Shown here: positions 10,670 to 31,417 of the stretch, piece by piece
Position numbering within the stretch: the first letter of the stretch is position 1
How the letters are laid out: the number at the start of each line of letters is the position of its first letter
Virus record (IMG/VR): IMGVR_UViG_3300009370_000003
Strand: one strand, 5' to 3'
Origin: a virus
DNA length: 64,000 nucleotides
Position numbers and translations under genes: made by a program
The notes under the pieces: generated by a model
What the model was told of the DNA's origin: nothing
What the model saw: the letters and a program-made list of their open reading frames with translations, nothing else
Database searches by the model: none

Positions 10670-11381
10670 ATCTTCTTTTCTCGTCTAATACTGCAATCTC
10701 ATCTCCTCGTAATACGATTGACCGTCTGTCTAAGTATTTAGCTTTTTTATGAGGTGCCTCTGCACCGTGTGGTATTCTTCCGTCAAACATTAATAATCTA
10801 TTTGGAACAAAATCAACAGAACCAATTTCAAGGCGATCCATTTCTTTTAAAATCCCCATAGGAATAGTATCTTTATAAAATCTTAATCTTCCACCAAAAT
10901 TTGGGTTCCAAAAACTATTTGAGTAGTATAAAAAAGAAAGGCTCCATTCATCTTCTTGAGAAGCATCTGAATGACATGTTCCATGTTGTCCATGTGTTTG
11001 AGAATTGCCACCCATATATTGAAACCTAACCCAATCAAAACCAAAATCAGTTCGGATTTTTCTATCTAACCACCTCATTAAAGGTTTATTTGGATTGTCT
11101 CCAGCTGGAGTGAAGTCTATCCCAGCAAAATAAGAACAACCCCATAATTGGTGATTTGGTAAACCACCTCTATTAGGAATGTTACCGTTTACTTGATTAT
11201 TTTTAGACCAAGCAGTTCTTCTGTGTAATTCATCATCTACATTTTTCCACAATGAAGTTTCTAGATAATTATCTAGAACATAAACATTGTTCTCTAATGG
11301 AAAACTGTCCTGAATATAGAAAGGCTCGTCTATAAAATGGACATTGATATTATCCAGCGTCATTTGGTTGTAACCCACCAC
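10656..11381 (-). CDS. 2OG-Fe(II) oxygenase (prolyl-hydroxylase-like)
   Basis: HxD (CHSD), W..NFGG.L.F, PNRLLMFDGRIPHGA and the distal R typical of the double-stranded beta-helix fold. Confidence 0.85.
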   Translation of the reverse strand: MVGYNQMTLDNINVHFIDEPFYIQDSFPLENNVYVLDNYLETSLWKNVDDELHRRTAWSKNNQVNGNIPNRGGLPNHQLWGCSYFAGIDFTPAGDNPNKPLMRWLDRKIRTDFGFDWVRFQYMGGNSQTHGQHGTCHSDASQEDEWSLSFLYYSNSFWNPNFGGRLRFYKDTIPMGILKEMDRLEIGSVDFVPNRLLMFDGRIPHGAEAPHKKAKYLDRRSIVLRGDEIAVLDEKRRYAND

Positions 11382-11928
11382 TGCTTCTCAAATGAGAAGG
11401 TGGAGGCAGCTGCATTAAGTATTCCTCTAAAGGTTTAAGAGTATCTTCTCTTGTTATCGATATCTCTCTGAATACTTCTTCAGCAACACAAGCCAATGCG
11501 TCTGTATATTCCAAAACCCTTCGGGCATTTGATCTGTGTGGATGCGCTGACCCTTCACGAGCAGCAATAGAAACTTCTACTATATCATCAAAACCATACT
11601 GTTCGACTTGTTGATAAGTGTTTCTTCTAACCCCTTCTGCAACTCGACCAGCATATTGTTGATTTAAACTAACCCCACTTGGTGGTTCAGAATTTTCAAT
11701 ATAAGCTTCGATTGCGTCCTTTTCATTTTCAGATAAAGGAAGTTTTGCTTGTTCGTCAAGCTCTTTACCGTCTTCCCATTCTTCAACTTTGCATTCAATA
11801 TCATCATATATTATAACTTGATAGTCAAATCCTAAGTCAGGAGCGTCAACACTTTCATGTCTCCACTCTAATCCATTTGGTTTTCTTATAAAAAGATTTC
11901 CGTTTTCGCAGTAAACTAATGCATTCAT
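11350..11928 (-). CDS. Hypothetical protein (possible fibre assembly chaperone)
   Basis: Acidic 192-aa ORF in the operon. The helical C-terminus (YGFDDI..V...LEEYLMQLP) loosely resembles tail-fibre assembly proteins. Confidence 0.45.
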   Translation of the reverse strand: MNALVYCENGNLFIRKPNGLEWRHESVDAPDLGFDYQVIIYDDIECKVEEWEDGKELDEQAKLPLSENEKDAIEAYIENSEPPSGVSLNQQYAGRVAEGVRRNTYQQVEQYGFDDIVEVSIAAREGSAHPHRSNARRVLEYTDALACVAEEVFREISITREDTLKPLEEYLMQLPPPSHLRSSGGLQPNDAG

Positions 11929-11938
11929 ATTAACTCCA

Positions 11939-13567
11939 TTATACCTTTAACATTCTTTTATATGTTTCATATACTTCTAACATATTTATGTGTTCACAAT
12001 CCATGCCTTTTATCCATGGGCCACCTCTTGTATAGTGAACTGCATGGTGACTATTTAACATGGTTTTTTCATATCCTTCGGTTGCAATTTTATCATGTGG
12101 TATCTTACTAATTTGATTAGTCCATTCAAACTGGTGTAAAAACTGACCACTTGCAGTATTAACTACTTCGGGTGTTAATTTCCTACAATCTTCATGACCA
12201 TTATTAAATATCATCATACTAGACCACAATTTTTTAGGATATGAAACATTCTTTTCTCCACCCATTTTTGTCTCGTCATGCTCTTTAAAATCATATTGAA
12301 CACATGCAATAGCATGATCAGGGTCTAAGAAATAAAATAAAGACATAGGTGAATATTTCCATATGTAGTCATCGTCTATAAAGAAACTAAATCCTTCATA
12401 GTTTTCTAAATATGGAATTAAGAATCTACTGTAAGTAAACTCTGTCGATTGATTTGCGTAGTCCCTATTATATTCGGGAATTTGGCTTATGTCAAGTTTC
12501 TTAACTTCTACTTTGTAATCATTAAAAAACTCTTGGCCATCGCCACCGCTTCTACATTTATCTATTGAATCGTGTATAGAATTCTCTGCAATTTTAAATA
12601 TATCACTATGAGAAGAATCATAGCCAAGATAGATATTAACTGGTTTCTTTTTACATAATTTAGTTACTTTTTTATTAAAATCATAAACATAATCTCTAAA
12701 ATTTAACCCACCAACATTACTAGGAGACCATTCAATCTTACCGTCTCTAGTGTATATAGCTGTGAGTGAGTCTCCCTTTACTGTGTCTTTCCAATAATCT
12801 AAGATATCATCTAAAGTCATTGAGTCAATGTTAGGAAATAAATTTGTATAATCTGTAACTAAAATAGGAAGTTCAGGTATGTCTATTGTTTCAAATACCT
12901 TTGAACGAATCGAGCCGGGATGAATGCTTATCTTAGGTATAATATCGTGCTCTTCTCCATCGGCCCCAAGGTATTTACCACCAGCTGCAGTATGTCCTTG
13001 TATGCATTGCCAGAGACCTTCTTTTTGTATATTATTAATCAACCAGTGTGCTTTTGCAGCGTGATAATATTGTGCTTGTAATGCATTTTCTTCGTCTATA
13101 TTTAACTTATTACAATCAGGGTGGTCACTAACAGTTGATAACCATTGATACTCATCATCTGTATTTTTAAAATCCATAGAACCACCTTTTACAGGGTGGT
13201 CGGGTCTAGGTTCTTGAGAATATCCTAAATGAAGGTATCTATGATATTGTAATGAATTATGATGCAACTGTTGATATCCCATCAACTTCCCAGCATCTAT
13301 TAATTTTTTAACTTCTGACCATGGAACCATTCGTATCGGAGGTTGTTGTGAGACAACATACTCCATTATCTTATAAGTTTCTGTCTCTTTATACTTGCCC
13401 GGCAGAACGGGTGCATCGTGGGGATTAATAAAACTTATAGAACCTAAGTTAAATTCCTGAACCTCACCGCGTGACGGAGACCCGTGAGAATTTTTTACCT
13501 CATCGAGGTCTCTACGGAATGTGAATTTGCGGGCTTCCTCAAGTGTTTCTATCTTCACCATAGTCAT
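11939..13567 (-). CDS. Fusion of an unknown N-terminal domain and a GT-A glycosyltransferase
   Basis: C-terminal domain has IYLGYDS, STEFTYSRFLIPYL, FIDDD (DxD), YPKKLWSSMMIFN, FLHQFEW and HYTRGGPW. Confidence 0.85.
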   Translation of the reverse strand: MTMVKIETLEEARKFTFRRDLDEVKNSHGSPSRGEVQEFNLGSISFINPHDAPVLPGKYKETETYKIMEYVVSQQPPIRMVPWSEVKKLIDAGKLMGYQQLHHNSLQYHRYLHLGYSQEPRPDHPVKGGSMDFKNTDDEYQWLSTVSDHPDCNKLNIDEENALQAQYYHAAKAHWLINNIQKEGLWQCIQGHTAAGGKYLGADGEEHDIIPKISIHPGSIRSKVFETIDIPELPILVTDYTNLFPNIDSMTLDDILDYWKDTVKGDSLTAIYTRDGKIEWSPSNVGGLNFRDYVYDFNKKVTKLCKKKPVNIYLGYDSSHSDIFKIAENSIHDSIDKCRSGGDGQEFFNDYKVEVKKLDISQIPEYNRDYANQSTEFTYSRFLIPYLENYEGFSFFIDDDYIWKYSPMSLFYFLDPDHAIACVQYDFKEHDETKMGGEKNVSYPKKLWSSMMIFNNGHEDCRKLTPEVVNTASGQFLHQFEWTNQISKIPHDKIATEGYEKTMLNSHHAVHYTRGGPWIKGMDCEHINMLEVYETYKRMLKV

Positions 13568-13588: not shown

Positions 13589-14515
13589 TTAAGAGGTAAT
13601 CGGAGTCGCAGGCCACTGTTGTTGTAATACGCCATCCCATCTTGGAACTGGTGTTCGACCAGCCCTTTGATAAGTGAATGGACTTCTATGATCATATGTT
13701 GTAGGAGTTTGACCTTGTCTAGCATAGGTAAACGGAGACCTATAATTATAAGTGAACGGGGTTTGTCCAGTTCTCTGATAAGTAAACGGAGACCTATGTT
13801 GATATGTATCAGGAGTTTGTCCAGTTCTCTGATAAGTAAATGGACTCCTATGGTCATAGGTATAAGGTGACCTATGGTCATATATTACTGGTTGTCTTGA
13901 ATCTCTAATATTAGGTTCTTGAATGTTCCTGATATTAGGTTCTTGTTGGTTCCTGATATTAGGTTCTTGTTGATTTCTAATGTTAGGTTCTTGAGCTGAC
14001 CTAATGTTAGGTTCTTGTGCATTAGAAGGACTTTGAGCATTCTTAATAGTCGGTTGTTGAGCAGACTTAATCGTAGGTTGTTGTGCCGCAACTGGATTCC
14101 TATAGGTAAACGGTGACCTATATTGATAAGTATTCGGCTGTCTTGCCGCATTTTGATAAGTAAACGGCGACCTATGGTTATAGGTAAACGGTGACCTATG
14201 GTTATATGTGCCTGGCGACCTCCAAGTGTAGGTAAACGGCGACCTATGGTTATAGGTAAACGGTGACCTATGTTGATAAATGGTCGGTTGTCTTGCTTGT
14301 GCGATAAATGGTTGTCTCGCAGGTGCTTGATAAGTGGTCGGTTGCCTTGCCTGTGCAATAAAAGGTTGTCTCGCAGGTGCTTGATAAGTGGTCGGTTGCC
14401 TTGCCTGTGCAATAAATGGTTGTCTCGCAGGTGCTTGGTATATTACAGGCTGCCGTGCCTGTGCAATAAACGGCTGTCTTGCGTTTCCGATAAATGGTGA
14501 TTGATAAAAAGGCAT
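13589..14515 (-). CDS. Proline-punctuated repeat protein A (308 aa), mirror partner of protein B
   Basis: 34 units of 6, 8 or 10 aa over aa 7-288, including PFIAQARQ, PTTYQAPARQ, PFTYNHRS, PNIRNQQE and PFTYQRTGQT. Confidence 0.85.
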   Translation of the reverse strand: MPFYQSPFIGNARQPFIAQARQPVIYQAPARQPFIAQARQPTTYQAPARQPFIAQARQPTTYQAPARQPFIAQARQPTIYQHRSPFTYNHRSPFTYTWRSPGTYNHRSPFTYNHRSPFTYQNAARQPNTYQYRSPFTYRNPVAAQQPTIKSAQQPTIKNAQSPSNAQEPNIRSAQEPNIRNQQEPNIRNQQEPNIRNIQEPNIRDSRQPVIYDHRSPYTYDHRSPFTYQRTGQTPDTYQHRSPFTYQRTGQTPFTYNYRSPFTYARQGQTPTTYDHRSPFTYQRAGRTPVPRWDGVLQQQWPATPITS

Positions 14516-15405
14516 TATTCTTTCTCCCCGCCTGGCGGTTGTCCACTATAATATAGTGGAATCCTTGCTTGATAAGTAAACGGGTTCTGTGCATTATGCG
14601 TAAACGGACTTTGTTTACTCGCAGAATAGGTAAACGGGTTCTGTGCATTATGTGTAAACGGATTCTGTCTATTTGCTGGATAGGTAAATGGATTCTGTGC
14701 ATTATGCGTAAACGGATTCTGTCTATTTGCTGGATAAGTAAACGGGTTCTGTGCATTATGTGTAAACGGATTCTGTCTATTTCTACTATTCGGTTCCTGT
14801 CCTGACCTAATGTTAGGTTCCTGTCCTGACCTAATGTTAGGTTCTTGGAAATTCCTAATGACAGGTTGCTGACTTGACCTAATGTTAGGTTCTTGAGCAT
14901 TCGCTGGATAAGTAAACGGAGTCTGACTTGACCTAATGTTAGGTTCCTGTGCATTTACAGGATTTCTATATGTAAATGGAGACCTGTGATTGTAAGTAAA
15001 TGGAGACCTGTGATTGTAAGTAAACGGGTTCCTATATGTGAACGGAGACCTATGGTCATAAGTAAACGGCGACCTGTGATTGTAAGTTAAAGGACTTCTG
15101 TGGTTATAAGTAGTAGGACTTCTGTGGTCGTAAGTATACGGTGACCTATGGTCGTAAGTAAACGGACTTTGTTTACTCCTACTATTCGGTTGTTGAATAT
15201 TTCTTATGTTTGGTTCTTGAGCATTCGCAATATAAGGATAGGGATTTTGTCTATCCCTTATATTAGGTTCCTGTGCAGCTGCAATATAAGGATACGGTTG
15301 TTGTGCATTTCTTATATTAGGTTCTTGACCATTCGCGATATAAGGATAAGCATTTTGCCTATTTCTTATATTAGGTTCTTGAGCTGTTGCAATATATGGA
15401 TAAGG
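13652..15405 (-). repeat. Coding tandem repeats with 18/24/30-bp units and 54-bp higher-order units
   Basis: Visible near-identical DNA units such as gtaaacggtgacctatggttatag, attaggttcttg... and aaacgggttctgtgcattatg. Confidence 0.9.
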
Positions 15406-15570
15406 GTTTTGAACTGCTTCTTGCCCAGACGCATCATTCCATGTCGCCGGGCCGGTTTTTGCATATATTTGATCAACAGCCTTCCAAGTAGACGCACCTG
15501 TCTTTACCCAAGCACCTTGAGTTGCGTTCCAACCTGTAGGGGTCTTAACCTTCTGATTACCTGATGCCAT
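14515..15570 (-). CDS. Proline-punctuated repeat protein B (351 aa)
   Basis: N-terminal (V/A)KTxxxW beta repeats, then 34 units over aa 56-337. TAATG overlap with protein A. Confidence 0.85.
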   Translation of the reverse strand: MASGNQKVKTPTGWNATQGAWVKTGASTWKAVDQIYAKTGPATWNDASGQEAVQNPYPYIATAQEPNIRNRQNAYPYIANGQEPNIRNAQQPYPYIAAAQEPNIRDRQNPYPYIANAQEPNIRNIQQPNSRSKQSPFTYDHRSPYTYDHRSPTTYNHRSPLTYNHRSPFTYDHRSPFTYRNPFTYNHRSPFTYNHRSPFTYRNPVNAQEPNIRSSQTPFTYPANAQEPNIRSSQQPVIRNFQEPNIRSGQEPNIRSGQEPNSRNRQNPFTHNAQNPFTYPANRQNPFTHNAQNPFTYPANRQNPFTHNAQNPFTYSASKQSPFTHNAQNPFTYQARIPLYYSGQPPGGEKE

Positions 15571-15593: not shown

Positions 15594-17216
15594 TTAAGAG
15601 TATAAAATCCACAAGTCACCAACGGCCCCATCTCCTCCTGTAGGTGCTGAAGTTGACTGATACACATTTCTTGCTGTCCCACCACTATTTGTGGCATTTG
15701 TTATTGTCACCGCACCAACCGACAATGGAGCTACAGAAATAGTTAAACCTCCTGTTGAAGCACCCGTGTCTGTTGTGGTTCCTAATATGAAACTATCTGC
15801 AGATTCGTCCCAACCCATAAATCCGTTATTACCTGTTGACCCTCTTTCAAGAATCAAACCAAGGTCATTAGAGTTAGAACCTGTATTACCTGAACCAAGT
15901 TCGATTAATGCATCTTCAATAGTAGTATTAGTTGCACTATTAGTAACGGTTGCACCATTAACTGTTAAATTTCCTGATACTATGACATCATCAAATGTTA
16001 CATCGTCTGATGTGCCAACTGCCTGTCCGATACTGAACTGGCCACCTGAATAGGTAACACCTGTTCCAGCACTTAAATGTGCTCTTACTTCTGCAGCACT
16101 CGGGCCTGTATATGTGAATACACCTGTTGAATTATTATATGCAAGTGAACCATCTCCACCAGCATCTGTGACTGATACATCTGCTCTTACTAAAGCTTCT
16201 GTGTATTGTGTTATTGTAGTTGCAAGTGTTAAAGTTCCCGCTGCATCATCATATGTTGCTGTTATTCCTGTTCCAGCAGTTACCAAAGCAGCGACTCTAT
16301 CGTCTACTCTTTCTGATGTATGGTAAAGGTTACTTGAACCTTCTGATAATGCATCTGTGTCTGCAAGAACAGTTCCACCTAATGAAGTTGCAGAACCAGC
16401 GATTGTTATACTTGAATTTGAAAGTTTTGAATTTGAGATAGAACCTGCCAACATGGCATCTGTTATACCTAATGCTTTAACTCGAACTGCATCTGAACTT
16501 AATTCTACTGAACTTCCGTCTACACCTACTGCAAGAACACCACTTGACGCTGCAAGTCCGTTTCCTGCTATTGCTGTAACTACATCTGCTATTGCTTCTT
16601 TCTTACTTGAGTTATCTGTTGCATCTACTATTGCAAAACTGTCAGCTGCAACATCTACTGTAGCTGCTGTTAATTCGTTTAAGTCTAGTGCTAATGATAC
16701 TGCACCACTTGTTCCACCACCTGATAAACCGTCACCTGCTGTGACTCCTGTTAAATCTGCAGTTGTGGATAAAACACCATTTGTTGCAGTTATGTTTGTA
16801 CCTGCCATTGCTGTAGCAAGGTCTGCGATTGATTCTTTTCTCGAACCGTTACTGTCGTTTGCATCAATAATTGCAATACTATCGTTTGCAACATCTACTG
16901 AAGCTGCTGTTAATTCACTTAAGTCTAATGCAAGTGTGGCATCACCTGATGTCGCACCACCTGAAAGACCGTCTCCAGCAACAACACTTGATATGTCACC
17001 TGTTTCTGCATCTCTTGTGATTGTTAGGGTTCCGGCTCCATCATTATATGATAATGATATACCCGAACCAGCTGTCATTAAAGTGTTTACTTGGTCATCG
17101 ATTGCTTCTAATGCAGCGGTTCCAAATGCAGCTGCAGTTAAGTCTCCTGAACTGTCAATTACTTCGGTTGCACCTACATTCAGCCCGTTTTTTATTCTAA
17201 AATTCTGCGCTGCCAT
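15594..17216 (-). CDS. Tail fibre / stalk-like structural protein
   Basis: G/T/A/S/D-rich, with a duplicated AGDGLSGG..SG...LALDL.ELTAA.VDVA.DS.AI.DA block and a C-terminal STSAPTGGDGAVGDLWILYS. Confidence 0.75.
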   Translation of the reverse strand: MAAQNFRIKNGLNVGATEVIDSSGDLTAAAFGTAALEAIDDQVNTLMTAGSGISLSYNDGAGTLTITRDAETGDISSVVAGDGLSGGATSGDATLALDLSELTAASVDVANDSIAIIDANDSNGSRKESIADLATAMAGTNITATNGVLSTTADLTGVTAGDGLSGGGTSGAVSLALDLNELTAATVDVAADSFAIVDATDNSSKKEAIADVVTAIAGNGLAASSGVLAVGVDGSSVELSSDAVRVKALGITDAMLAGSISNSKLSNSSITIAGSATSLGGTVLADTDALSEGSSNLYHTSERVDDRVAALVTAGTGITATYDDAAGTLTLATTITQYTEALVRADVSVTDAGGDGSLAYNNSTGVFTYTGPSAAEVRAHLSAGTGVTYSGGQFSIGQAVGTSDDVTFDDVIVSGNLTVNGATVTNSATNTTIEDALIELGSGNTGSNSNDLGLILERGSTGNNGFMGWDESADSFILGTTTDTGASTGGLTISVAPLSVGAVTITNATNSGGTARNVYQSTSAPTGGDGAVGDLWILYS

Positions 17217-20428: not shown

Positions 20429-20836
20429 TCAGAATCGTCTATAGGGTATAATTGGAATATAAATTCCTAGTCCAATTCCTTCATTTTGTATAACTGGGTA
20501 TATTGATACCACTTGAAGAGCTCTTAGTGTGAATTGTCTTTCTCTTTGGTTCAGTCTCTTGTCTAGCATGTTGTAGATCATATAATTCATTCCCAATTTT
20601 ATAGCAATTACTTCCCCTTTCTTTGGGTGAGTTCCAACTAATTGATTTGTTTCGTAATAGGGACAGTGTGGATTTCGGTCTTGACATTCGATTAATGCGA
20701 AAGTCTGCATTACATCAATAGTCTGTAAAGTTATAAAAGATTTGTAGAGACGCTGGTCTTGAGTCGACCAATCGTCTAGGGCAGCGTTACATGTACCAGC
20801 AGCGGTTAATAGTAAGAATGTAATTAACCACTTCAT
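20429..20836 (-). CDS. Hypothetical exported or membrane protein
   Basis: Signal peptide-like MKWLITFLLLTAAGTCNA. Confidence 0.6.
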   Translation of the reverse strand: MKWLITFLLLTAAGTCNAALDDWSTQDQRLYKSFITLQTIDVMQTFALIECQDRNPHCPYYETNQLVGTHPKKGEVIAIKLGMNYMIYNMLDKRLNQRERQFTLRALQVVSIYPVIQNEGIGLGIYIPIIPYRRF

Positions 20837-21064: not shown

Positions 21065-21397
21065 TTACCTCGTTACGCCTGGCGTTAAGATTGCTTGTCC
21101 TTCAACAACCCTAGTTGTTTCTGAAGCAGCACTTGTTATATTTAGGTCATAGACATACCTACCCGCCTCTAAAGCAGTTGTTTGAGTATCCGTAAGTGAC
21201 ATTTTCACTTTACCCGTCGCAGCTGTTATAACGCATGTAAAGGTTGCAGATATAGAAGTAGACCCATAAGTCTTTCTTATTTGGGCAGCTGCAGTGTATC
21301 CAGTGAGGTCTAAAACTTCTCCTGCGACATCTGTGCAGTCTACTTCAATAGAATAATCTGTTCCTTGGTCGATATAAAGATTTGCTATGATTGCCAT
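21065..21397 (-). CDS. Virion structural protein (BppU-N-like Ig fold)
   Basis: NLYIDQGTDY, LDLTGYTAAAQIRK, GRYVYDL, RVVEG....TPGVT; this pattern is common in marine T4-like phages. Confidence 0.75.
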   Translation of the reverse strand: MAIIANLYIDQGTDYSIEVDCTDVAGEVLDLTGYTAAAQIRKTYGSTSISATFTCVITAATGKVKMSLTDTQTTALEAGRYVYDLNITSAASETTRVVEGQAILTPGVTR

Positions 21398-21414: not shown

Positions 21415-23250
21415 TTATGATTTAGAATACTGTGCAGTAGGAACTTCTTGGTGTATTTTAGCTACAGCCTGTGTGCTGGGGTTGTGAACATAAACCTGTT
21501 TTACCTTAGTTGCCGTTGACTGCCCACTCTCATTAACAAATACACCTTTCACTTTTGCAAGAGGGCCAATTGGTCTTGTAGTTGAATAAGGCGTTTGATA
21601 TGGAAACGGTGACCTATGGTCATAGTTAAGTTGATATTGATGCTGGTAAGTAGTCGGTTGCCTATGTTGTGCCTGAAATGGTTGTTGAGCATTTACTGGG
21701 TGACCATATGTAAACGGAGACCTATATTGATAAGTATTCGGTTGTCTTGCTTGTGCAGTATATGGATAGGTTTGTTGTGTGTCCCTACTATTTTGTGCGT
21801 CTGAAATAAACGGACTTTGATAAGTAAACGGACTTTGAACTTGGTATATAATCGGAGTTTGACCTGTCCTTTGATAAGTAAACGGACTTCTATGGTCGTA
21901 AGTATTCGGTTGTCTTGCTTGTCCTTGGTAAGTGCCCGGCTGTCTCGCATTTGCAATATATGGATACGGTTGTCTTGCAACTCCAATATACGGTGATCTA
22001 TGGTCATAAGTATAAGGACTTCTATGGTCGTAAGTAGTAGGACTTCTGTGGTCGTAAGTATACGGTGACCTATGGTCATATATTACTGGTTGTCTTGAAT
22101 CTCTAATATTAGGTTCTTGAATATTTCTTATGTTTGGCTCTTGACCTTGTGCTATCACCTGATTCGTAAAAGGTTGAAATGCAATATATGGTGTATCACT
22201 TTGTGCTACTGACGGGTTCGCAGCTTGTGTTGGTTGATTTGTAACTTGGAATATATAAGGTGACTGCAATGGTGGCACGCCCGGCTCTCCGTCTGGAATC
22301 GGAGTCCGACCTATTGCTGGCCCACTATATTGGAAGGTGTAAGGAGTTTGAACCTGATACGCATTTTGATATTGTGCTTGATAAAATCCACCTTGTGCAG
22401 TGCTTGGAGCTCGGGATGGTACATTCCTAGTTCTTATGTTAGGTTCTTGATTGGACATAACATAACTCTCTTCCACCAACTCACCTCCACCCCAGCCCGG
22501 CCCAGTCCAACCACCAAAAGGTATATAGGCTGGGTTAGTCTGATAAGTAAATGGACTTCTATATTGATATGGTTGTTGAACAATAGACGGAGTTTGAATA
22601 TTTACTGGACTCGGTTGCTGAGCAGTGTAAGGAAATGGACTTCTATATTGGTAAGTATAAGGACTTCTATGATCGTAAGTAAATGGACTCTGTTTACTTC
22701 TTTGATTAGGTTCTTGAATGTTCCTGATATTAGGTTCTTGTTGGTTCCTGATATTAGGTTGTTGAATATCTCTTATGTTTGGCTCTTGTAAATTACTATT
22801 CGGAATAGCTAATTGACCTGTTCTTTGATAGGTAAATGGAGTCTGACTAATCGCAGGAAATGTAAATGGAGTCTGACTATTTCTTATATTAGGTTCTCGG
22901 CCAGTTGCAATATAAGGATAGGGCTGTTGTTTGTTCTTAGCATTATTTTCTTGTGCGCTTACAGGTTGTCTACTTTGATATTCAGTCGGGTGTTGATATA
23001 TAACTGGTGTTCGACCTGTTCTTTGATAGGTAAATGGAGTCTGACTATTTCTTATATTAGGTTCTCGACCCTGAACTATGTTTTGATATGTAAACGGTGA
23101 TTGTTCTGCATTCGTAAATGGATTTTGCCTATTTGCAATAGTTGGCACAGCTTTCTGTCGAGAGACAGGTTGCTGTCCTTGTGCAATTACTTGTCCTTGG
23201 TAAGGTTGTTGAAACTCCGACCCAGTGTTTATATAGATATCGTCAGCCAT
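21415..23250 (-). CDS. Proline-punctuated repeat protein C (611 aa), internally palindromic
   Basis: Same repeat vocabulary as A and B. Arms at aa 16-204 and 372-559 flank a less regular centre. Confidence 0.85.
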   Translation of the reverse strand: MADDIYINTGSEFQQPYQGQVIAQGQQPVSRQKAVPTIANRQNPFTNAEQSPFTYQNIVQGREPNIRNSQTPFTYQRTGRTPVIYQHPTEYQSRQPVSAQENNAKNKQQPYPYIATGREPNIRNSQTPFTFPAISQTPFTYQRTGQLAIPNSNLQEPNIRDIQQPNIRNQQEPNIRNIQEPNQRSKQSPFTYDHRSPYTYQYRSPFPYTAQQPSPVNIQTPSIVQQPYQYRSPFTYQTNPAYIPFGGWTGPGWGGGELVEESYVMSNQEPNIRTRNVPSRAPSTAQGGFYQAQYQNAYQVQTPYTFQYSGPAIGRTPIPDGEPGVPPLQSPYIFQVTNQPTQAANPSVAQSDTPYIAFQPFTNQVIAQGQEPNIRNIQEPNIRDSRQPVIYDHRSPYTYDHRSPTTYDHRSPYTYDHRSPYIGVARQPYPYIANARQPGTYQGQARQPNTYDHRSPFTYQRTGQTPIIYQVQSPFTYQSPFISDAQNSRDTQQTYPYTAQARQPNTYQYRSPFTYGHPVNAQQPFQAQHRQPTTYQHQYQLNYDHRSPFPYQTPYSTTRPIGPLAKVKGVFVNESGQSTATKVKQVYVHNPSTQAVAKIHQEVPTAQYSKS

Positions 23251-23251
23251 A

Positions 23252-24478
23252 TCATACTACAAACCATAAGTGACCTACAGCTGAAGAACCAACTGAGCCT
23301 GGCGCAGTAGATACTATCTCATAATCAAGTTCAACATTTCCACTATTGATTTCTATCCCCTTTGAAGTGTTTACAACGAAATCTAATTGACCATTCGGGT
23401 CATCATAAGTTACAGTGATACCAGTTTCGGTATTGCCTGAAACCATACCTCCAACGATGTCTTCTATTTCTTCTTGAGTCTTCTGAGCAACTCCAGTAAA
23501 ACTAAAACTATTTGCATTATCATCATATGATATTGAAATATTAGTGTGAGTTCCAGCCGAGAATGCATCATTCAATGCGTCTTGTGCATTTTCATTTGTA
23601 TAAGTTGCAGCTGCATCATCATTTTCCCACTTACTGGTTGTCGAATTATAAACTAAAACTTGACCATTCGCAGGGCTAGAGGTTGTGACATCACTCAAAC
23701 CACCAACCGAATGACCTGATATAGAATTTGTTGTTGATGAAGTTGTTGCATTACCAACAAAGTTTGTTGAAGTTATAGAACTAAATCCTGTTCCTACACC
23801 ACCTGTAATAGTTGCTGTTCCATCAGTAAGTGTTGGTGCAGTTAATGTTTTACCTGAAGCAAGTGTCATATTGTCTTCTACAAAAACATTACCATTTGCT
23901 AACTGGATTGTATAACCCGACTCTAGTAAGACTGTTCTTCCTGTACTAGACCCATTTAAAATAACTCCATCAGTGTTAACATTATAAATTGTATTTGCAG
24001 CTGTTTCTACAAAGTGACCTCCAGCAGCTCCTCCAACACCACCAGCATCTCCTAGGACTGAACCAGTGAATGCATAAACTGTAAGAATATCATTTACTGC
24101 AGCTGCATTTTGTAAAGTTATTTTAGTCCATTTACCAGCAACTGCTGTGGCTGGGTTGTAATCTGTTCCTTCTACTAAATGTTTTGAAGTTCCAGCCGAA
24201 TGGTCATTTAAGAATACCTGATATCTGCCCGGCATAAGTTCTAAGGTATTAAGATTTGAATCTTCACCAGTGAAATCTGTCTGTCCAGCAGTTGCTACAT
24301 ATTCAAATGTTTGGAAGTAAAAAGTCTTAGCTTCTAATTCATTAATTGCATCTACTAGATTATTATCGTTAGATATACTTCCCGCAAGTCCAGCAATAGT
24401 TCCGACATCATTTGCGAGGTCGTTATGAGTGCTTCTAAACTCTTCTATAGTTTGATTTCTGTCTACTGTTCTAGCCAT
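23252..24478 (-). CDS. Fibre / stalk-like structural protein
   Basis: N-terminal TIEEFR..HN, YVATAGQTDF, repeated E..QD.....GT.T.I..SYDD units and C-terminal STAPGSVGSSAVGHLWFVV. Confidence 0.7.
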   Translation of the reverse strand: MARTVDRNQTIEEFRSTHNDLANDVGTIAGLAGSISNDNNLVDAINELEAKTFYFQTFEYVATAGQTDFTGEDSNLNTLELMPGRYQVFLNDHSAGTSKHLVEGTDYNPATAVAGKWTKITLQNAAAVNDILTVYAFTGSVLGDAGGVGGAAGGHFVETAANTIYNVNTDGVILNGSSTGRTVLLESGYTIQLANGNVFVEDNMTLASGKTLTAPTLTDGTATITGGVGTGFSSITSTNFVGNATTSSTTNSISGHSVGGLSDVTTSSPANGQVLVYNSTTSKWENDDAAATYTNENAQDALNDAFSAGTHTNISISYDDNANSFSFTGVAQKTQEEIEDIVGGMVSGNTETGITVTYDDPNGQLDFVVNTSKGIEINSGNVELDYEIVSTAPGSVGSSAVGHLWFVV

Positions 24479-24692
24479 CTTTGTTAATTAGTTCCTTTAA
24501 TAATGTTTTTATCTCACTCATATCATTCTTTAAACTATTTATTTCATCTTTCTGTGTTCTTAGCATTTGCCTTCGTTTCATAGTAAGTCTATATTGTTTA
24601 ACATCAGTATTAATTATAGCATGAGATTCTTCGTCTCTTACTAAGTTTGCATGACCTTCTACTTTAATACCCATTATGCAAGTGCCATACAT
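24471..24692 (-). CDS. Small conserved hypothetical protein
   Basis: KVEGHANLVRD..S.AIINTD plus a coiled coil. The true start is probably the second Met. Confidence 0.65.
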   Translation of the reverse strand: MYGTCIMGIKVEGHANLVRDEESHAIINTDVKQYRLTMKRRQMLRTQKDEINSLKNDMSEIKTLLKELINKDG

Positions 24693-27600
24693 CTAAGTGC
24701 AGATACCGATGGAACAACACATGTGTTATTCCCTTGACCTACAATTTTAACTACAAATGAACTAAATTCGGGTAAGTCCTCTGCAGTATATTCGTATTCT
24801 TTAAAATTCTTTTGGTCTACCTCGATTGCTTTATCGGGAGCTCCAGTTGTATTAAAATATTCAAATCCAATATCATCTAATGGAGTTGATTCATCTGCTT
24901 TAATAATTTTATACATGAACTTAAGTTCAGTATTTGGTGGTCTAAAGTTATCTGCAATAACCTTTAGGGTCGTAGCAGGTGTTTTAAGGTTGACTTTCCT
25001 TGTCACATACACCATTGCATTGTTATCACCTTCGGGTTCCGTAGAGGCCGAATATGTGACTCCTGTGGGTACATCTGCACTACTATCTATAGTGTTTAGT
25101 CTATTTCCTATTGCAAGACACCCTATTGTTCCTACATCGATTACTGGTGAAATTGTATTATTCAATGAATACATTTGCAATAATAATCTGAATGACCTTA
25201 CACTTGACATTTCGTTGTCTTCATTAATTTTTGAAGCAACGATGCCTGGCGAATCTAAGAAAGAGTTGTCATTTAATGTTATAAAATTGTTTTCTGACCT
25301 TCTAGTATATGCAGTATCTCCAGTTGCAATATGTCCCTCGGGAGCTTTCATTGCAGTTGATTCTGTGCTTGCAATAATTTTTGAACTACCTACTTGTGTT
25401 GAAGGTATCATTGTATGCAAACAATCGAAGTAATAGTTTCTAGAAGAAGTGACTTCTTCACCACCACCTGTTGTTGATTCTAATGCAGTATATCCACTTA
25501 CAAACTTATTAGCTGCAATATAACTTGACATATCGACTGCAACATTGAATGAGTCAATACCCATATCTGATACTCCAGTATAAGTTATTGTGCTTGCACC
25601 ACCGATTGCGTCTACTGGAAGACCACCTAGGGTCTCACCAATAGTTTTAACATTAACTGTTAAGTCAACTGAGCCACTTCCGTCTGTTGCATGGTCAAAG
25701 TCTTGGAAGGTAATAGTGTTCCCAACTGCATGACCTTGGCCGGGGTCTTCGATTTCTATACTAGAAATAGCATTACTTGCTATTACAACTTTAAGTTTTA
25801 ATCCTGACCCAGTTCCATTTGTCAAATCTTGAGCCCTTGCAGTATATGTTCCGTTAGTTGCAGTTCCACTTCCTAGAGCTGCACTCTCTACTTCTAATAC
25901 AGAACCTAGTCTATCTCCAACTATACCTTTTACTTGAACATTTGAACCTGTATCATAATGTCCGTGCATATAACTTGAAATTTTTACTGTATTACTACCT
26001 AGAGTTGTTTGTATTGGGTTCTTAGCAAGTTTTGATAATTCTAAGTCACCATTTTCGAAGTATAAACTTGCGACTTTCGAAGTATCAAAGTTTGCTACCT
26101 TCATGGTGAACTTCATATCATCTGTTTGTTCTGCTGTCCAAGTTGAAGCATTCTGTGATAAGAATAAGGAACCAGCATATGGTTGTCCTGAAATTTGTTG
26201 TGAAGATATTATATCTGTTTCTCCCATTCTTGATATCCAACATTCGTATTCGTTTGAGTTGGAGTATACAACTAATGCATATTCTTTCTTCTCTTCAACC
26301 ATTACTGGTGAATCAAAAGTAAATGTTGTTGCAGTCGCCCCGTCTGATGATATATTGACATCTGCTGGGTTCTTAGTTACTGTAGAGAATGGTAATACTG
26401 TTTGAGCAGGATATCCATTAACCATTGTTCTTATTTCAACTGACACTGGCATATGTGTATCTTTTGCTTGGAAGTATACATCAACCGAAGTTAACATCAT
26501 TCCACCTGCTGCTTCCACTAAGAATGATTGTGCAAGTGGGTCTGCCCAACCTCTTTCCAAGAATGAGCCTGGCCCAATCCAAAAATCCTCTATATTTGGT
26601 TCAAAACTCGCGATTGGTGGTATCACAACCACTGGAGGCGGTACTGGGAATGTAATAACTGGAGGGTCAAAGAGTATAGGCGGTGCAGGCGGTACTGCTA
26701 TCACTTCTGGCGGTAAAGGAATTACTACTGGCGTATCGTCAATCACTACAGTGATAGGGTCAGGTTGAGGATCAGCTATTGGTGTTGGTATTGGTATAGG
26801 AGTTGTATCCACTGGAATATCAGGTGCTACTGTATCAGAAGGAGACATATTTATTCTCTCACCCCTTCTTGTTTGTGACCTTTCCCCTTCTGTTAATTGA
26901 GATATAACTCTACCATTTCTTGTAGAAGTAATTTCTGTTTGTGAACTTGCCATTAGACCTTGAGCTTGATATACTGCAGAGCCCATACTTGGTGGATTAC
27001 TTAAGTTATAAAAACTAGAAGTAAGTTTCAGTTCTCTCATTCCTACTGGGAATGCTTGTATATCGGTATTTGGTAATTCAAAATATCCTCTTAATCGACC
27101 ATTACCGTCTGACTTAAGACCATCTGCTACAGTTGTAGTGGTGTTTGTAGAATAAGTTGCACTAAAAGGTCTTACATAATTGTCCACTCTAATTCCGTCA
27201 AAGAAGAAGAAGTGGTTTGTGTTTGGTTTTAAGTTAGTTGCATCAATCTCAATAGTCCTTGCTCTCATAAATGGAATCAATGTGACCGCTACAACTCTAT
27301 CGTTTCTTGTTTCTACAAAGTCTTCTACTACAGAAGTTGTTAGACCTGTTCTTGTTTGAATTTCAGGGGTTTCTGTAATCTCTCTTGTAACTGTTTCTCC
27401 AGCTAACCATGTTCCACCTTGAGTTGGGTCTCCAGCCCATTGACCACTAGAAGTTGATTGAACTTCTGTAGATACTGTAGCGGGTTCTCCAACCCATGAA
27501 GTTTGCCATGAGTTCCATACAGTTCCTAGAGAGTTTCCTACATCAGCCATAACTGCATCATAGTTTCCTTCCCTGTTAACTCTTACATCAGGAAGTCTCT

Positions 27601-30600
27601 CTGTATCGTTCCATACATCTGTGCCCGGCGTTAGTTTAACATTTCCGATAAATGCAAAGACATGATATGGGTTTACATTGATATGTCTTGAAGCTTTGTC
27701 TTGGGTAATAAATGCTGTTTCAGTATAAGGTAATGTAATTAAATCACCAGTCTTTGTATAGTTTGCAGAAGTGCTTGTGTTTAATCCAATATCAAAGAAC
27801 TGTGAATACGATTGAGGTCTTAACATACCCATTGAAGTATCAATAGCACACCTGTAATCAGGGTGATTAACATCACCAATCTTATGTCCTCTAAAATTAT
27901 CTACGAGGAATCCTGATTTGAATCTGTCAAAACCGTCTGCATCTAATATCTGTGCAGATTGCGTGTCTTTCTCTAATAGAGATAGTGAGGTAATCCTTTC
28001 TAAGTTTGTGACTCTGTTATTAATTTTACCAATATCTTTCATAGTATATCGTCTATGGTCAAATGACCTGACTCTAATTCTATCTAAAGACTTGGTATAA
28101 GCTGGTATGTATAACTCAAACATTTCGATTGAGTCGTCAATAGCTTTTGGTTTAGTCGGTGATAGTGAAGGTATACCAGTTGATATCTCAAACATTCCGT
28201 CCTTTTGCAAGAATACTTTATCGATTCTTGAAGTATAGAACTCTATATCTCCAGTTGTAACTACAGTAGGAACTGGTGTATCTAATGCAGACCCACCTGT
28301 TCCAGCAAACTCTTTACTCAAATATTCGAATGGGTCTTTATTAGCTAATAACCCTGTAGATATATTAAAAGGACTTGCTGGGTCAGGAACAGAACTGTGG
28401 ATAGTACCACTAAAAAGCTTTGATACACTTGGCCTATAGTCTACACAATCTGATAATTCGAATTGACCATCGGGTTCTAATCCACCTAGGTCTACTTTGT
28501 TTGGTGAATAAACTGGAATATCTGCATAGTCTATTCCGTCATATGATTTTACATCATAGAATTCACCACCACTTGCTGTGAAGTAATCGAATACTATGAG
28601 TATTGAATTGTTTGGTGAAGGTTCGCCTGGCTTTAATGAAATTTTACCGTGGTCATAATATCCGTCTCTCTGACCATTGTCAAAGAAGTATCTGTCTGTT
28701 ATATTGTCTGAGCCGGGCAGAATTGTTCCTAATGTTGCTATTGCATTTGAAGTCTGACCTACTACACTTTCACCGTCAGTGAAAACATATTTGTTCATGT
28801 AGTAGAAGTATGTTGCAGCTCCACTATTGTATTTGATTATTCTAGCTTTTGCACCACTTGTCTGTCCAATAAGAATTTCCTCTGCTACAGGTGTTCCTGT
28901 AACACTTCCTAATATTGCACTTGGTGGTAATGGTGTTGTCCCACCGATTCCTTCGTAGATACCTCTGACTCCAAAACAGTCTGCAACACCTAATGTAATA
29001 TCTTTATGATTGTATGCAGTTCCATAATCCGTATTAGCTCCATCTGCAGCGTCTACTATTGCACATCTTGATCTCTGTATATGTTTGGTTCTATTTACTG
29101 GTGCATCTAATTTAACTGCATATGATACTATCCATTTACCATTATTACCACCAACAGTGAATGTATATTTTTCACCTGAAACACCGTGTATATCTTTTGT
29201 AGCAGCTGCCCCACCACTGGTTGGGTCTACTTCAGCACCTAGTGTTGAAGACCCGTCTGAATTTGCATCGAAACAAGATATTTGGAAATTGTCTCTAGAT
29301 AATTGTAAGAATGATTCATTATTACCTGTCTCAATCACAATGTCCCCACTTGAAGCAGTAACAACCTTTTGTCGTTTAACTGTTATATCATCAGGGGTAT
29401 GATTTACAATCCAATCTCTCGGCCATGCGAATATAGCTGCAGATTGGTCTTGGTCATAAATCTTAACTCTTCGTCTATATGCATTTGAATTTGATAATAC
29501 ACCAACACCCGAAGTTGCAACTGTTTGAGCTGCAATATTACTTGTGACTGTTGCAATTACTTGTTCTGCATTTGCACCGTCAAGAATTACATCTCCTTCT
29601 TTTAATTCTGCCGTAAATCTACTTCCTAGACCTGAAACATTACCATTAGCTGCAATAGATACTGTTCCTGATAATACTTGATCATCATCTTCAACAACAT
29701 CTGCAGTAAAGTCTGCTTCATTACTTGGCCTTTCTTGACCTATACCTCTTACACGGTCTATATTATATGACCTAACTTGGTTTGCAATACCTCTAAAGTT
29801 TTCACCTACGACTGTGCTAGCAAAGTCTCCGTCACCTGTTGTGGCTAGCACATCACCGTGGACGAATTGACCTACTACATCATGGACATAGAGTGCGTCT
29901 GAACCATTGTCATATGCAACGATACCAGTTGCACCACTTGTTCCACCAGTGACTTTATCACCAGCATCTGCAGTTCCAGTATGAGAACTATATTTAAGCT
30001 TGGTAAACATTTTTACATCAAACAGATATAAGTTTACTCCGTCTTCTGCACTTCCTGAATCGTCATTTGAATCGATATATCTAACTCTTGCAAAACCGAT
30101 ATGGTCTCCTGAACCTAAATTCCCAGCAGTTAATGTAGTTGGGAATAGCTCACATACCTGAAAAGGAGTTATCGTTCCATCTCCTGATTCATTACCAAAA
30201 CTTGGGAAACCAAAGCAGTTTTCTACTTTAATATAGTTTCCTAATCTTGTTGGTGTTTTCGCACCTGAGGCTGATATAGTTGTTCTTGCCTTTTGGATAT
30301 TTAAGTTTGTAGTTCCAATCTTATCAATTTCATAACCTTTAACATATGCCTTGCCTGGCGATACCTGTAGAATAAATTTACTCTCGTCACCACCTTGGGC
30401 TTTAAGATAAAATCCTCTGTTAGTTGTATCGTCTAAATGTTCTCTTAAACTATGAGTGAATTGTTGTGTAACAAAGTCACCGTTTGCATCGAATGTTCTT
30501 CGTGCAAGTGTATTTTCTATTTCTGTGTATATTGGTCTGACTGTTTTTAATTCAATCATACCTTTATTAACTCTGACTAATTCAATAAAGTTTGCATCTT

Positions 30601-31417
30601 CTGTAGAGGTTAATACATATTTTGAAAGAGTTAATGAAAATTTAAATCTATCTGCACCCGAAGCGTTCTCATTTGAGCTACCTGTTGCATTATCGTATAA
30701 ACTTTTATCCTCAGCAGTTGATATCAATTCTTCTTTAATTGTTAAACCAACTCTATATGAAGGTTTTGCGTTATATTTTTCTAAGATTAATAATTGTTTG
30801 TCAACCTTACAAAAATACCCTCTAATGTATACAACACCTTCTGAAATATTTGCAATAGAACAACGACCTAAAGGCGTTTCTGTTTCCGCTTCAACCGTGA
30901 AGTCATTATTACTTGTGGTATCTTCTGTTACTACACCACTTGCATCAAATCCACACTTAACAAGAGTTTCTCCTGCTGAGAATCCAAATGAATTGTTTGC
31001 GTCTGTTCCTTGTCTTTCTAGTCTTACGAAAAGAGTAAGTTTATCTGTAGTTGTTTCAGCAGTTGAGTGTATAACCTTTGCAACAACACCTGTTGTTTGA
31101 CCTACGAGATACTCTCCATGATAAAGAGCCCGATAAGATTCAGCAGCTGGGTCACCCAATTCATTCGGGTTAGCTGTTTTAACTTTAACATAATAGAGGT
31201 CAAAGTCTACATCGGATTGAGCCCCTGTGACGATTGACCCTTCTTCAAAGAAGTGATTACTAAATCTCTCTATCTGATTTTGTAAGATAGATTGTGTTTG
31301 AGTTAGTTCTCTTGCCTGTAATGGTCTTCCAGCTCTATATAGAACCTTATGAAAGTTTTTATCCTGACTGTAGTCGTCATAATAGGGTGATATATTTAAA
31401 TCAGTCTTCTCTGCCAT
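24674..31417 (-). CDS. Large virion structural protein (DUF4815 / VrlC-like)
   Basis: LNISPYYDDY...QARELTQ.Q, RRYTMKDIG, RFKSGFLVDNF, DPLAQSF, SQNASTWT. Confidence 0.88.
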   Translation of the reverse strand: MAEKTDLNISPYYDDYSQDKNFHKVLYRAGRPLQARELTQTQSILQNQIERFSNHFFEEGSIVTGAQSDVDFDLYYVKVKTANPNELGDPAAESYRALYHGEYLVGQTTGVVAKVIHSTAETTTDKLTLFVRLERQGTDANNSFGFSAGETLVKCGFDASGVVTEDTTSNNDFTVEAETETPLGRCSIANISEGVVYIRGYFCKVDKQLLILEKYNAKPSYRVGLTIKEELISTAEDKSLYDNATGSSNENASGADRFKFSLTLSKYVLTSTEDANFIELVRVNKGMIELKTVRPIYTEIENTLARRTFDANGDFVTQQFTHSLREHLDDTTNRGFYLKAQGGDESKFILQVSPGKAYVKGYEIDKIGTTNLNIQKARTTISASGAKTPTRLGNYIKVENCFGFPSFGNESGDGTITPFQVCELFPTTLTAGNLGSGDHIGFARVRYIDSNDDSGSAEDGVNLYLFDVKMFTKLKYSSHTGTADAGDKVTGGTSGATGIVAYDNGSDALYVHDVVGQFVHGDVLATTGDGDFASTVVGENFRGIANQVRSYNIDRVRGIGQERPSNEADFTADVVEDDDQVLSGTVSIAANGNVSGLGSRFTAELKEGDVILDGANAEQVIATVTSNIAAQTVATSGVGVLSNSNAYRRRVKIYDQDQSAAIFAWPRDWIVNHTPDDITVKRQKVVTASSGDIVIETGNNESFLQLSRDNFQISCFDANSDGSSTLGAEVDPTSGGAAATKDIHGVSGEKYTFTVGGNNGKWIVSYAVKLDAPVNRTKHIQRSRCAIVDAADGANTDYGTAYNHKDITLGVADCFGVRGIYEGIGGTTPLPPSAILGSVTGTPVAEEILIGQTSGAKARIIKYNSGAATYFYYMNKYVFTDGESVVGQTSNAIATLGTILPGSDNITDRYFFDNGQRDGYYDHGKISLKPGEPSPNNSILIVFDYFTASGGEFYDVKSYDGIDYADIPVYSPNKVDLGGLEPDGQFELSDCVDYRPSVSKLFSGTIHSSVPDPASPFNISTGLLANKDPFEYLSKEFAGTGGSALDTPVPTVVTTGDIEFYTSRIDKVFLQKDGMFEISTGIPSLSPTKPKAIDDSIEMFELYIPAYTKSLDRIRVRSFDHRRYTMKDIGKINNRVTNLERITSLSLLEKDTQSAQILDADGFDRFKSGFLVDNFRGHKIGDVNHPDYRCAIDTSMGMLRPQSYSQFFDIGLNTSTSANYTKTGDLITLPYTETAFITQDKASRHINVNPYHVFAFIGNVKLTPGTDVWNDTERLPDVRVNREGNYDAVMADVGNSLGTVWNSWQTSWVGEPATVSTEVQSTSSGQWAGDPTQGGTWLAGETVTREITETPEIQTRTGLTTSVVEDFVETRNDRVVAVTLIPFMRARTIEIDATNLKPNTNHFFFFDGIRVDNYVRPFSATYSTNTTTTVADGLKSDGNGRLRGYFELPNTDIQAFPVGMRELKLTSSFYNLSNPPSMGSAVYQAQGLMASSQTEITSTRNGRVISQLTEGERSQTRRGERINMSPSDTVAPDIPVDTTPIPIPTPIADPQPDPITVVIDDTPVVIPLPPEVIAVPPAPPILFDPPVITFPVPPPVVVIPPIASFEPNIEDFWIGPGSFLERGWADPLAQSFLVEAAGGMMLTSVDVYFQAKDTHMPVSVEIRTMVNGYPAQTVLPFSTVTKNPADVNISSDGATATTFTFDSPVMVEEKKEYALVVYSNSNEYECWISRMGETDIISSQQISGQPYAGSLFLSQNASTWTAEQTDDMKFTMKVANFDTSKVASLYFENGDLELSKLAKNPIQTTLGSNTVKISSYMHGHYDTGSNVQVKGIVGDRLGSVLEVESAALGSGTATNGTYTARAQDLTNGTGSGLKLKVVIASNAISSIEIEDPGQGHAVGNTITFQDFDHATDGSGSVDLTVNVKTIGETLGGLPVDAIGGASTITYTGVSDMGIDSFNVAVDMSSYIAANKFVSGYTALESTTGGGEEVTSSRNYYFDCLHTMIPSTQVGSSKIIASTESTAMKAPEGHIATGDTAYTRRSENNFITLNDNSFLDSPGIVASKINEDNEMSSVRSFRLLLQMYSLNNTISPVIDVGTIGCLAIGNRLNTIDSSADVPTGVTYSASTEPEGDNNAMVYVTRKVNLKTPATTLKVIADNFRPPNTELKFMYKIIKADESTPLDDIGFEYFNTTGAPDKAIEVDQKNFKEYEYTAEDLPEFSSFVVKIVGQGNNTCVVPSVSALRCMALA

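What the first reader, a model, noticed from the sequence alone, without database searches (positions are those of the whole stretch)
21415..23250. 611-aa protein is a single-chain protein palindrome (stem-loop) of the same design
Seen: the N-arm (aa 16-204) has units 12,8,8,8,12,8,10,6,8,6,8,10,8,10,10,9,8x6. The C-arm (aa 372-559) read backwards gives 12,(8+8),8,12,8,10,6,8,6,8,10,8,10,10,8,8x6. The arms are 189 and 188 residues, differing by a single one-residue bulge, if a few Pro->N/A/S/T/Q substitutions are allowed at unit boundaries. The spacing string differs from the A/B one, so this is an independent second instance of the mirror rule. Inference: a roughly 60-nm intramolecular hairpin with a 167-aa tip.
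Basis: partly seen in the sequence, partly recalled or inferred. Interest (0 to 1): 0.93.

Follow-up and report, generated by a model that had tools for sequence, protein, structure and literature searches.

The report
Self-zipping phage fibre with complementary arms
A 611-residue protein in the host-recognition region of an uncultured marine T4-like phage has two ~190-residue arms whose repeat units and residues complement each other when one is read backwards. Dozens of relatives change both arms together or encode them as two genes, so the chain most likely zips into a long, thin two-stranded fibre of a design I could not find described.

Summary
Observation confirmed. The gene is on the minus strand (21415-23250). 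Prolines of aa 16-205 mirror those of aa 372-560: 18 of 23 boundaries have Pro on both sides (unit-shuffle null 11.1±1.5, p≈3e-4). It is not a literal palindrome and has no DNA inverted repeat; the arms are complementary (aromatics face small residues, Pro faces Gln/Arg). Among 64 distinct orthologous systems the mirror keeps a register fixed by the termini while unit strings differ. With a pairing code learned only from paralogous A/B pairs, the true partner ranks first of 64 in 35 cases, this protein included. Twenty-one orthologues are split into two genes that mirror each other. Covariation peaks at even offsets (i+j=574), and an alignment-based AlphaFold model gives strands 17-77 and 497-557, at low overall confidence. 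Best reading: a fold-back antiparallel beta-ribbon fibre of about 60 nm on a tail-fibre stalk, with variable tip loops. It is not independent of A/B: the inner stem shares DNA with a paired A/B segment. No family, PDB or literature match. This scan already noted the family in at least 8 other genomes. Structure and function are untested experimentally.

The parts
21415..23250 (-). Gene for the 611-aa fold-back repeat protein C
   Evidence: ORF and translation; 421 homologues; mostly re-assembled at 100% identity in Logan contigs of a run that may be the source sample, with breaks at repeats
23206..23250 (-). aa 1-15, conserved N-terminal anchor (IYIN motif)
   Evidence: Invariant columns in alignments A1 and A2; fixes the register together with the C-terminal domain
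22627..23205 (-). aa 16-208, outgoing arm: outer stem 16-148, one-residue bulge near 149-153, inner stem 153-208
   Evidence: AlphaFold strand 17-77
22147..22626 (-). aa 209-368, tip: Pro/Gln-rich, with two length-variable loops (Trp/Gly/Glu-rich loop near aa 245-267, and aa ~312-330)
   Evidence: No significant internal mirror in this protein (26.3 vs shuffle maximum 29.0); loop lengths differ among five orthologues
21571..22146 (-). aa 369-560, returning arm, complementary to the outgoing arm
   Evidence: AlphaFold strand 497-557
21415..21570 (-). aa 561-611, small conserved beta-rich base domain (KVKG motif) plus stop codon
   Evidence: Invariant residues; best-scoring part of the model, pLDDT 71-76 over aa 571-600
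23252..24478 (-). 408-aa probable stalk / tail-fibre protein directly upstream, ending in a G-x-L-W motif; inferred attachment site
   Evidence: The motif ends the upstream gene in 116 of 117 C loci; weak PHROG hits only; the same gene position is annotated 'tail fiber protein' in phage C48C1, no sequence match
14515..15570 (-). Paralogue A (351 aa), outgoing strand of the two-gene version
   Evidence: 36 Pro-Pro matches with B against a null of 15.0±2.2
13589..14515 (-). Paralogue B (308 aa), returning strand of the two-gene version
   Evidence: shares 56- and 59-bp identical blocks with gene C
15594..17216 (-). 540-aa second stalk gene upstream of A, ending in the same G-x-L-W motif
   Evidence: PHROG 697 structural protein, E 1e-17
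21065..21397 (-). 110-aa gene downstream of C, similar to L-shaped tail fibre assembly proteins
   Evidence: phrog_3304, E 5e-23

Best explanation
Protein C is a virion fibre of a marine T4-like myovirus. The chain leaves a small base domain, runs out ~190 residues as one beta-strand, turns through a ~160-residue tip and returns as the antiparallel partner strand, giving a thin twisted two-stranded ribbon about 60 nm long with both termini at the base. Register is written in the sequence: units of 6, 8, 10 or 12 residues face units of equal length and opposite type. Phe/Tyr face Ala/Gly/Val/Asn on one face, Pro faces Gln/Arg on the other, Thr faces Asn. Shown: mirror, compensated length changes, pairing code, even-offset covariation, split and fused forms, genomic position. 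Inferred: beta conformation and exact register; prolines sitting at outward-facing positions so that the edges cannot grow into wider sheets; docking of the base on the C-terminus of the upstream stalk protein; host binding by the variable tip loops. Whether several ribbons bundle on a trimeric stalk is open.
For: Mirror beyond chance. Homologues with different unit strings keep it in a register set only by the termini. Pro match fraction in arm residues 60-130: true partner 0.57 vs swapped 0.28 over 64 systems; 0.91 vs 0.33 over 32 A/B systems. A code trained on other phages' A/B pairs ranks 25-147:429-551 and 153-208:369-424 as the two best segments of this protein; true partner first of 64 in 35 cases, top three in 53, this protein first. 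Predicted and found: orthologues with only the outgoing arm have the mirror arm in the next gene, same register (33 vs null 14.6; 29 vs 13.1). 892 distinct paired units covary at even offsets only, best at -2. In the outer stem at that offset 24 of 37 Phe/Tyr face a small residue and none faces another. AlphaFold with 58 sequences gives strands 17-77 and 497-557, sum 574. The gene lies between VrlC and the neck genes, the host recognition cluster of PMC7029224.
Against: The AlphaFold model is poor overall (mean pLDDT 40.7, pTM 0.20; 500 residues under 50); only the outer 61 pairs form, it uses the same homologues as the covariation, and I read the pairing from strand limits, not from a contact map. 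The inner stem could instead form two local hairpins (scores 50+82 against 148), and the small-versus-aromatic rule is weak there (2 of 13). Three homologues break the rule: P0017 (36-aa unmatched loss), L011 (no tip, 2-residue mismatch) and P0002 (C/B chimera). All lie on 1.9-2.5 kb contigs with junctions at repeats, so they are probably assembly errors, but this is unchecked. No cultured phage, virion proteomics or host is available.
Confidence: 0.72

Rival explanations
1. Same pairing code, but arms pair between chains or bundle: the outgoing arm of one copy pairs with the returning arm of a neighbour, or three hairpins wind into a six-stranded needle with the aromatic faces inside, as in the T4 gp37 needle.
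For: The same code works between separate chains in 21 split orthologues and 28 distinct two-gene A/B pairs. One face is strongly aromatic. Phage stalk fibres are usually trimers (own knowledge). Sequence statistics cannot tell intra- from intermolecular pairs.
Against: No HxH metal motif and no Cys. Both termini and the covalent tip favour the local partner (inference). AlphaFold forms the pair within one chain, though only one chain was offered.
Confidence: 0.15
2. The arms pair antiparallel in the outer stem only; the inner ~56 residues of each arm fold as local hairpins (a cruciform), giving a ~42-nm stalk with a branched head.
For: Both inner segments carry N-type units followed by Y-type units and score as local hairpins (50.4 and 81.8). 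Many fused orthologues have arms of only 117-155 residues.
Against: The long-range pairing scores 148, above the sum of the two local ones. The closest orthologue has a diverged inner block (44-47% identity) yet the same 189/188 lengths and bulge position. The inner block matches a paired A/B segment in exact register.
Confidence: 0.07
3. The arms pair antiparallel, but not as a beta-ribbon (for example polyproline II strands, or a double-stranded beta-helical tube).
For: 12% Pro and 15% Gln; single-sequence AlphaFold and the ESM model are unstructured.
Against: Unit lengths 6/8/10/12, strict even parity of prolines and even-offset covariation fit two-residue alternation, not the three-residue period of polyproline II. 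A tightly coiled beta form is not excluded.
Confidence: 0.04
4. The symmetry is a by-product of duplication or of the 8-residue period, with no structural pairing.
For: The 8-periodicity alone gives many Pro-Pro matches on other antidiagonals. Genes share DNA blocks.
Against: No inverted DNA repeat; facing units are unlike each other; shuffle and partner-swap controls; ungapped mirrors up to 516 residues between separate genes.
Confidence: 0.02

Closest known systems
Needle (domain D11) of the T4 long tail fibre protein gp37 (PMC6957217)
   Same: A phage fibre in which the chain runs out and back (stem 882-931 and 960-1009) with a receptor-binding tip inserted between the two stem halves and both ends at a base domain.
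   Different: gp37 has 50 residues per half, is a homotrimer held by seven iron ions bound by histidines, and has no modular repeat code. Here: ~190 residues per arm, no HxH, Pro-punctuated units, a complementary residue code, and natural split two-gene forms. No sequence or fold match.
Streptococcal antigen I/II stalk (SpaP, SspB, AspA; PMC3178794 citing Larson et al. 2010)
   Same: A single chain whose N- and C-proximal repeat regions pair antiparallel into a long stalk that projects a variable head.
   Different: That stalk is an Ala-rich alpha-helix paired with a polyproline II helix in a cell-wall-anchored bacterial adhesin. Here both arms use one vocabulary with two-residue alternation, and no helix is predicted.
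Paralogous A/B pair in this window and two-gene orthologues of C (L003, L005 and others); undescribed
   Same: Same units, code and stalk-gene context; homologous inner block.
   Different: Two chains instead of one; other terminal domains in A/B; split C orthologues end the outgoing chain in a globular or Hint domain instead of a loop tip.
Alveolin / articulin Pro-periodic repeats (own knowledge, lead only)
   Same: Proline-punctuated repeats proposed to form extended beta structure.
   Different: Eukaryotic membrane-skeleton proteins, Val/Ile- and charge-rich; no mirror code known to me; no Pfam hit here.

Membership tests
T4 gp37-type needle | Out-and-back chain path with the tip inserted into the stem | tested here: met
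   Mirror, covariation and partial model; inferred from sequence, not from a solved structure
T4 gp37-type needle | HxH motifs binding central iron ions | tested here: not met
   No HxH in the protein
T4 gp37-type needle | Sequence homology to gp37 / gp12 collar domains | tested here: not met
   No Pfam, PHROG or PDB sequence hit, single sequence or 58-sequence profile
T4 gp37-type needle | Fold similarity | tested here: inconclusive
   Low-confidence model; best Z 2.4
T4 gp37-type needle | Homotrimer with six-stranded cross-section | not testable with these tools
   The complex predictor was not available
Antigen I/II stalk | Ala-rich alpha-helical arm paired with a polyproline II arm | tested here: not met
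   Ala 5.9%, both arms Pro-punctuated with even spacing, no helix in the model
Antigen I/II stalk | Fold-back stalk carrying a variable distal head | tested here: met
   Architecture only
Collagen-like phage fibres | Gly-X-Y triplet repeats | tested here: not met
   No G-x-x-G-x-x-G in the protein
T4-like marine myovirus host recognition cluster protein | Position between VrlC and the neck genes (PMC7029224) | tested here: met
   VrlC-like gene at 24674-31417; head-tail adaptor at 7913-8728
T4-like marine myovirus host recognition cluster protein | Present in the virion and binds the host surface | not testable with these tools
   No cultured representative

The most novel reading that the evidence does not exclude
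A natural, free-standing two-stranded antiparallel beta-ribbon hundreds of residues long, whose register is set by a simple residue-level complement code. It can be built as one fold-back chain or as two chains, and lengthened or re-tipped by matched module exchange: a protein analogue of a nucleic-acid stem-loop.
Probability: 0.62. Interest if true: 0.9.

Novelty: categorically new. Interest (0 to 1): 0.82.

Why it matters
Isolated two-stranded beta-ribbons are normally short and prone to aggregate (own knowledge). A family that keeps 120-500 residues in exact register through a readable pairing code would be a new fibrous-protein architecture beside coiled coils, collagen and trimeric beta-fibres. 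It offers a programmable rule for nanometre-length protein rods and orthogonal heterodimers, and a clean natural case of compensatory insertions and deletions within and between genes. It also names a candidate host-sensing appendage for a group of uncultured marine myoviruses. The single-chain form is the easiest member to express and test.

Tried and rejected
Single-sequence AlphaFold (pLDDT 35) and the ESM Atlas model (pTM 0.19): uninformative. Fold searches with the alignment-based model found nothing significant in BFVD, PDB or the wide VIA search; the model is too weak for this absence to count. The complex predictor, the atlas fold library and a whole genome were not available. No Pfam, PHROG or PDB sequence hit. 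No tblastn hit in cultured phages for the protein, either terminal domain or the stalk (low-complexity filter on). The nearest phage by terminase, C48C1 (55%), has no such repeats in the seven genes I checked there. DNA inverted repeat as the cause: none. Nested hairpins in the tip: not above shuffles for this protein or for P0003 and P0004, marginal for P0002, above for P0005 only; left open. My first A/B anchor was off by one and gave zeros, corrected. The strict anchored alignment failed on about ten divergent orthologues; a bulge-tolerant one recovered the mirror in those tested. Nine literature searches found no description of this design. The host was not assigned.

Full report
Observation. 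The finding is a 611-aa ORF on the minus strand, 21415-23250, rich in Gln (14.6%), Pro (12.4%), Thr and Tyr. It is built of units that start with a Q/R-x-P motif and are 6, 8, 10 or 12 residues long. On i+j=576 (aa 16-148) and 577 (aa 157-205), 18 of 23 boundaries have Pro on both sides and five on one side. Shuffling the C-arm units gives 11.1±1.5 (1 of 3000 reaches 18), and the parallel orientation gives 11. There is no inverted DNA repeat, and facing residues are unlike, so this is complementarity, not a palindrome. Logan contigs of one run, possibly the source sample, reproduce most of the gene without a difference and break only at repeats.

Context. The window is the tail and neck region of a T4-like marine myovirus: sheath, terminase, head-tail adaptor, baseplate wedges and a VrlC-like protein 37% identical to those of phages Melnitz and Mosig. 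The gene lies between VrlC and the neck genes, the interval that PMC7029224 calls the host recognition cluster. Upstream is a 408-aa protein ending in a G-x-L-W motif; such a motif ends the upstream gene in 116 of 117 C loci and 64 of 71 A/B loci (most misses look like wrong-frame picks by my script). Downstream is a gene similar to L-shaped fibre assembly proteins. The host is unknown.

Homologues. Searches gave 421 proteins, 189 clusters at 50% identity and about 150 loci, none named or cultured. Anchoring only on the conserved termini, with no free parameter, homologues with quite different unit strings keep the mirror. Against the closest one (P0003, 61% identical) a 2-residue gain and a 2-residue loss in the outgoing arm are each matched in the returning arm (read directly). 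Some hits had only the outgoing arm plus a globular end. I predicted a partner gene next door and found it: L003 has 33 matches over 332 residues (null 14.6±2.1) and L005 has 29 over 258 (null 13.1±1.8), in the same terminal register. Of 64 distinct C systems, 21 are split. A tree of the terminal regions needs at least two, by parsimony four, switches between fused and split; it is unrooted, so no direction is claimed. The A/B locus likewise occurs as A-B, B-A or one chain, and its two-gene pairs mirror without a gap over most of their length, up to 516 residues.

Controls. Pro match fraction, true versus swapped partner: 0.57 vs 0.28 (C, arm residues 60-130) and 0.91 vs 0.33 (A/B). A residue-pair matrix trained only on A/B pairs of other phages picks 25-147:429-551 and 153-208:369-424 as the two best antidiagonal segments of this protein. 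With it the true partner ranks first of 64 in 35 systems and in the top three in 53; this protein's own arm ranks first. Of 43 systems scoring at least 100, 41 have arms equal within one residue and 28 need no bulge; the score threshold favours such cases. Divergent members keep the mirror with bulges, including blocks of 7-residue units facing 7-residue units. Related sequences are not independent, so these counts overstate the number of events.

Code and geometry. Among 892 distinct paired units, x-T-Y units face N-I-R, x-I-A, Y-P-Y or V-N-A units; like faces like rarely and never among 8-mers. Corrected mutual information peaks at offset -2 from the Pro-on-Pro line for 6-, 8- and 10-mers, is second at 0, and is near zero at odd offsets. 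Favoured pairs at -2 are Phe or Tyr with Ala, Gly or Val; Thr with Asn; Pro with Arg or Gln; Glu with Ser. In the outer stem 24 of 37 Phe/Tyr face a small residue and none faces another. All 34 outer-stem prolines share one parity. By established beta-sheet geometry, Pro lacks an NH and must sit where that group points outward, which requires even spacing; this fits a two-stranded ribbon with Pro on one face and aromatics on the other. AlphaFold with 58 sequences gives two 61-residue strands, 17-77 and 497-557 (sum 574), and a small beta domain at 570-601. Overall confidence is low (pLDDT 40.7), the rest is unfolded, and the input overlaps with the covariation data, so this is modest support. 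Whether -2 is the direct pair or the diagonal neighbour is not settled by covariation alone.

Independence from A/B. The outer stem has its own spacing, but aa 171-202 is 28/32 identical to A 118-149 and aa 370-401 is 32/32 identical to B 191-222. These A and B segments face each other in the same register, and DNA blocks of 47, 56 and 59 bp are identical. I infer that a matched pair of segments moved, or was homogenised, between the loci. P0003 has a different inner block of the same length with the bulge at the same place.

Tip. Residues 209-368 use the same vocabulary, lose strict parity, and show no significant internal mirror here. Five orthologues differ in length in two loops, one rich in Trp, Gly and Glu. 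Split orthologues carry unrelated globular or Hint domains at this position. A changeable distal end in the host recognition cluster suggests receptor binding; this is inference.

Exceptions. P0017 lacks 36 residues of the returning arm, L011 lacks the tip and mismatches by two, and P0002 joins C to the end of B at a shared block. All are on contigs under 2.5 kb with junctions at repeats. Assembly error is likely but untested.

Comparison. It works like the gp37 needle (PMC6957217) and the antigen I/II stalk (PMC3178794) in path: out, tip, back. It fails membership of both: no HxH, no homology, no helix/polyproline II split. I found no description of such a code in nine literature searches of a library that lacks most subscription papers. 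Earlier notes of this scan report the same family in other genomes, including a 491-aa fold-back form. They agree, but are not independent evidence; they pointed me to gp37 and antigen I/II.

Verdict. The feature is real and under selection. Antiparallel in-register pairing is very likely (about 0.95), beta conformation likely (about 0.85), a single-chain hairpin fibre of about 60 nm for host contact about 0.72. No known family contains it. Interest 0.82.

Noticed in passing
window 13589-15570: The A/B pair mirrors over 282 residues with 36 Pro-Pro matches. In other phages the order is reversed (L031, L082, L088, L098, L141) or the two are fused (L133, L138, L140, L149).
   Followed up: yes
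L116 9890-13964: A/B pair of 719 and 543 aa with an ungapped mirror of 516 residues (70 Pro-Pro matches), roughly 160-170 nm if extended.
   Followed up: partly
L002 993-2753; L006 17726-19069; L008 692-2326 and 10001-11548: Outgoing-strand proteins ending in a Hint domain or Hint-like sequence (Pfam Hom_end_hint above cut-off in L002), suggesting autoprocessing or ligation at the fibre tip.
   Followed up: partly
window 9048-13567: A 542-aa protein that looks like a glycosyltransferase fusion (phrog_28018) and at least one 2OG-Fe(II) oxygenase follow gene B; similar genes follow A/B in L008. They might hydroxylate or glycosylate the Pro-rich fibres.
   Followed up: no
window 23252-24478 and 15594-17216: Both stalk genes end in the same S-T-x-P...G-x-L-W motif, conserved upstream of almost every repeat locus; likely a strand completed by the base domain of the repeat protein.
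   Followed up: partly
P0067, L075 (526-540 aa group): Divergent orthologues contain blocks of 7-residue units in both arms, matched in number, so regular bulges are tolerated when symmetric.
   Followed up: partly
window 22031-22122 and 22705-22760 vs 13866-13965 and 15107-15153: Identical 47-59 bp blocks shared by genes C, B and A; assemblies break or jump here (probable origin of chimera P0002).
   Followed up: partly
P0136, P0220, P0240, P0244, P0247, P0249: Longer proteins (636-3276 aa) carry similar repeat stretches or the base domain in other architectures.
   Followed up: no
window 20429-20836: 135-aa gene with a signal-peptide-like N-terminus inside the fibre cluster; no family hit.
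   Followed up: no
L008 11568-12464: The gene caller shortened the B-type partner to 108 aa; the full ORF is 298 aa and mirrors its A partner. Such repeat genes are easily mis-called.
   Followed up: yes
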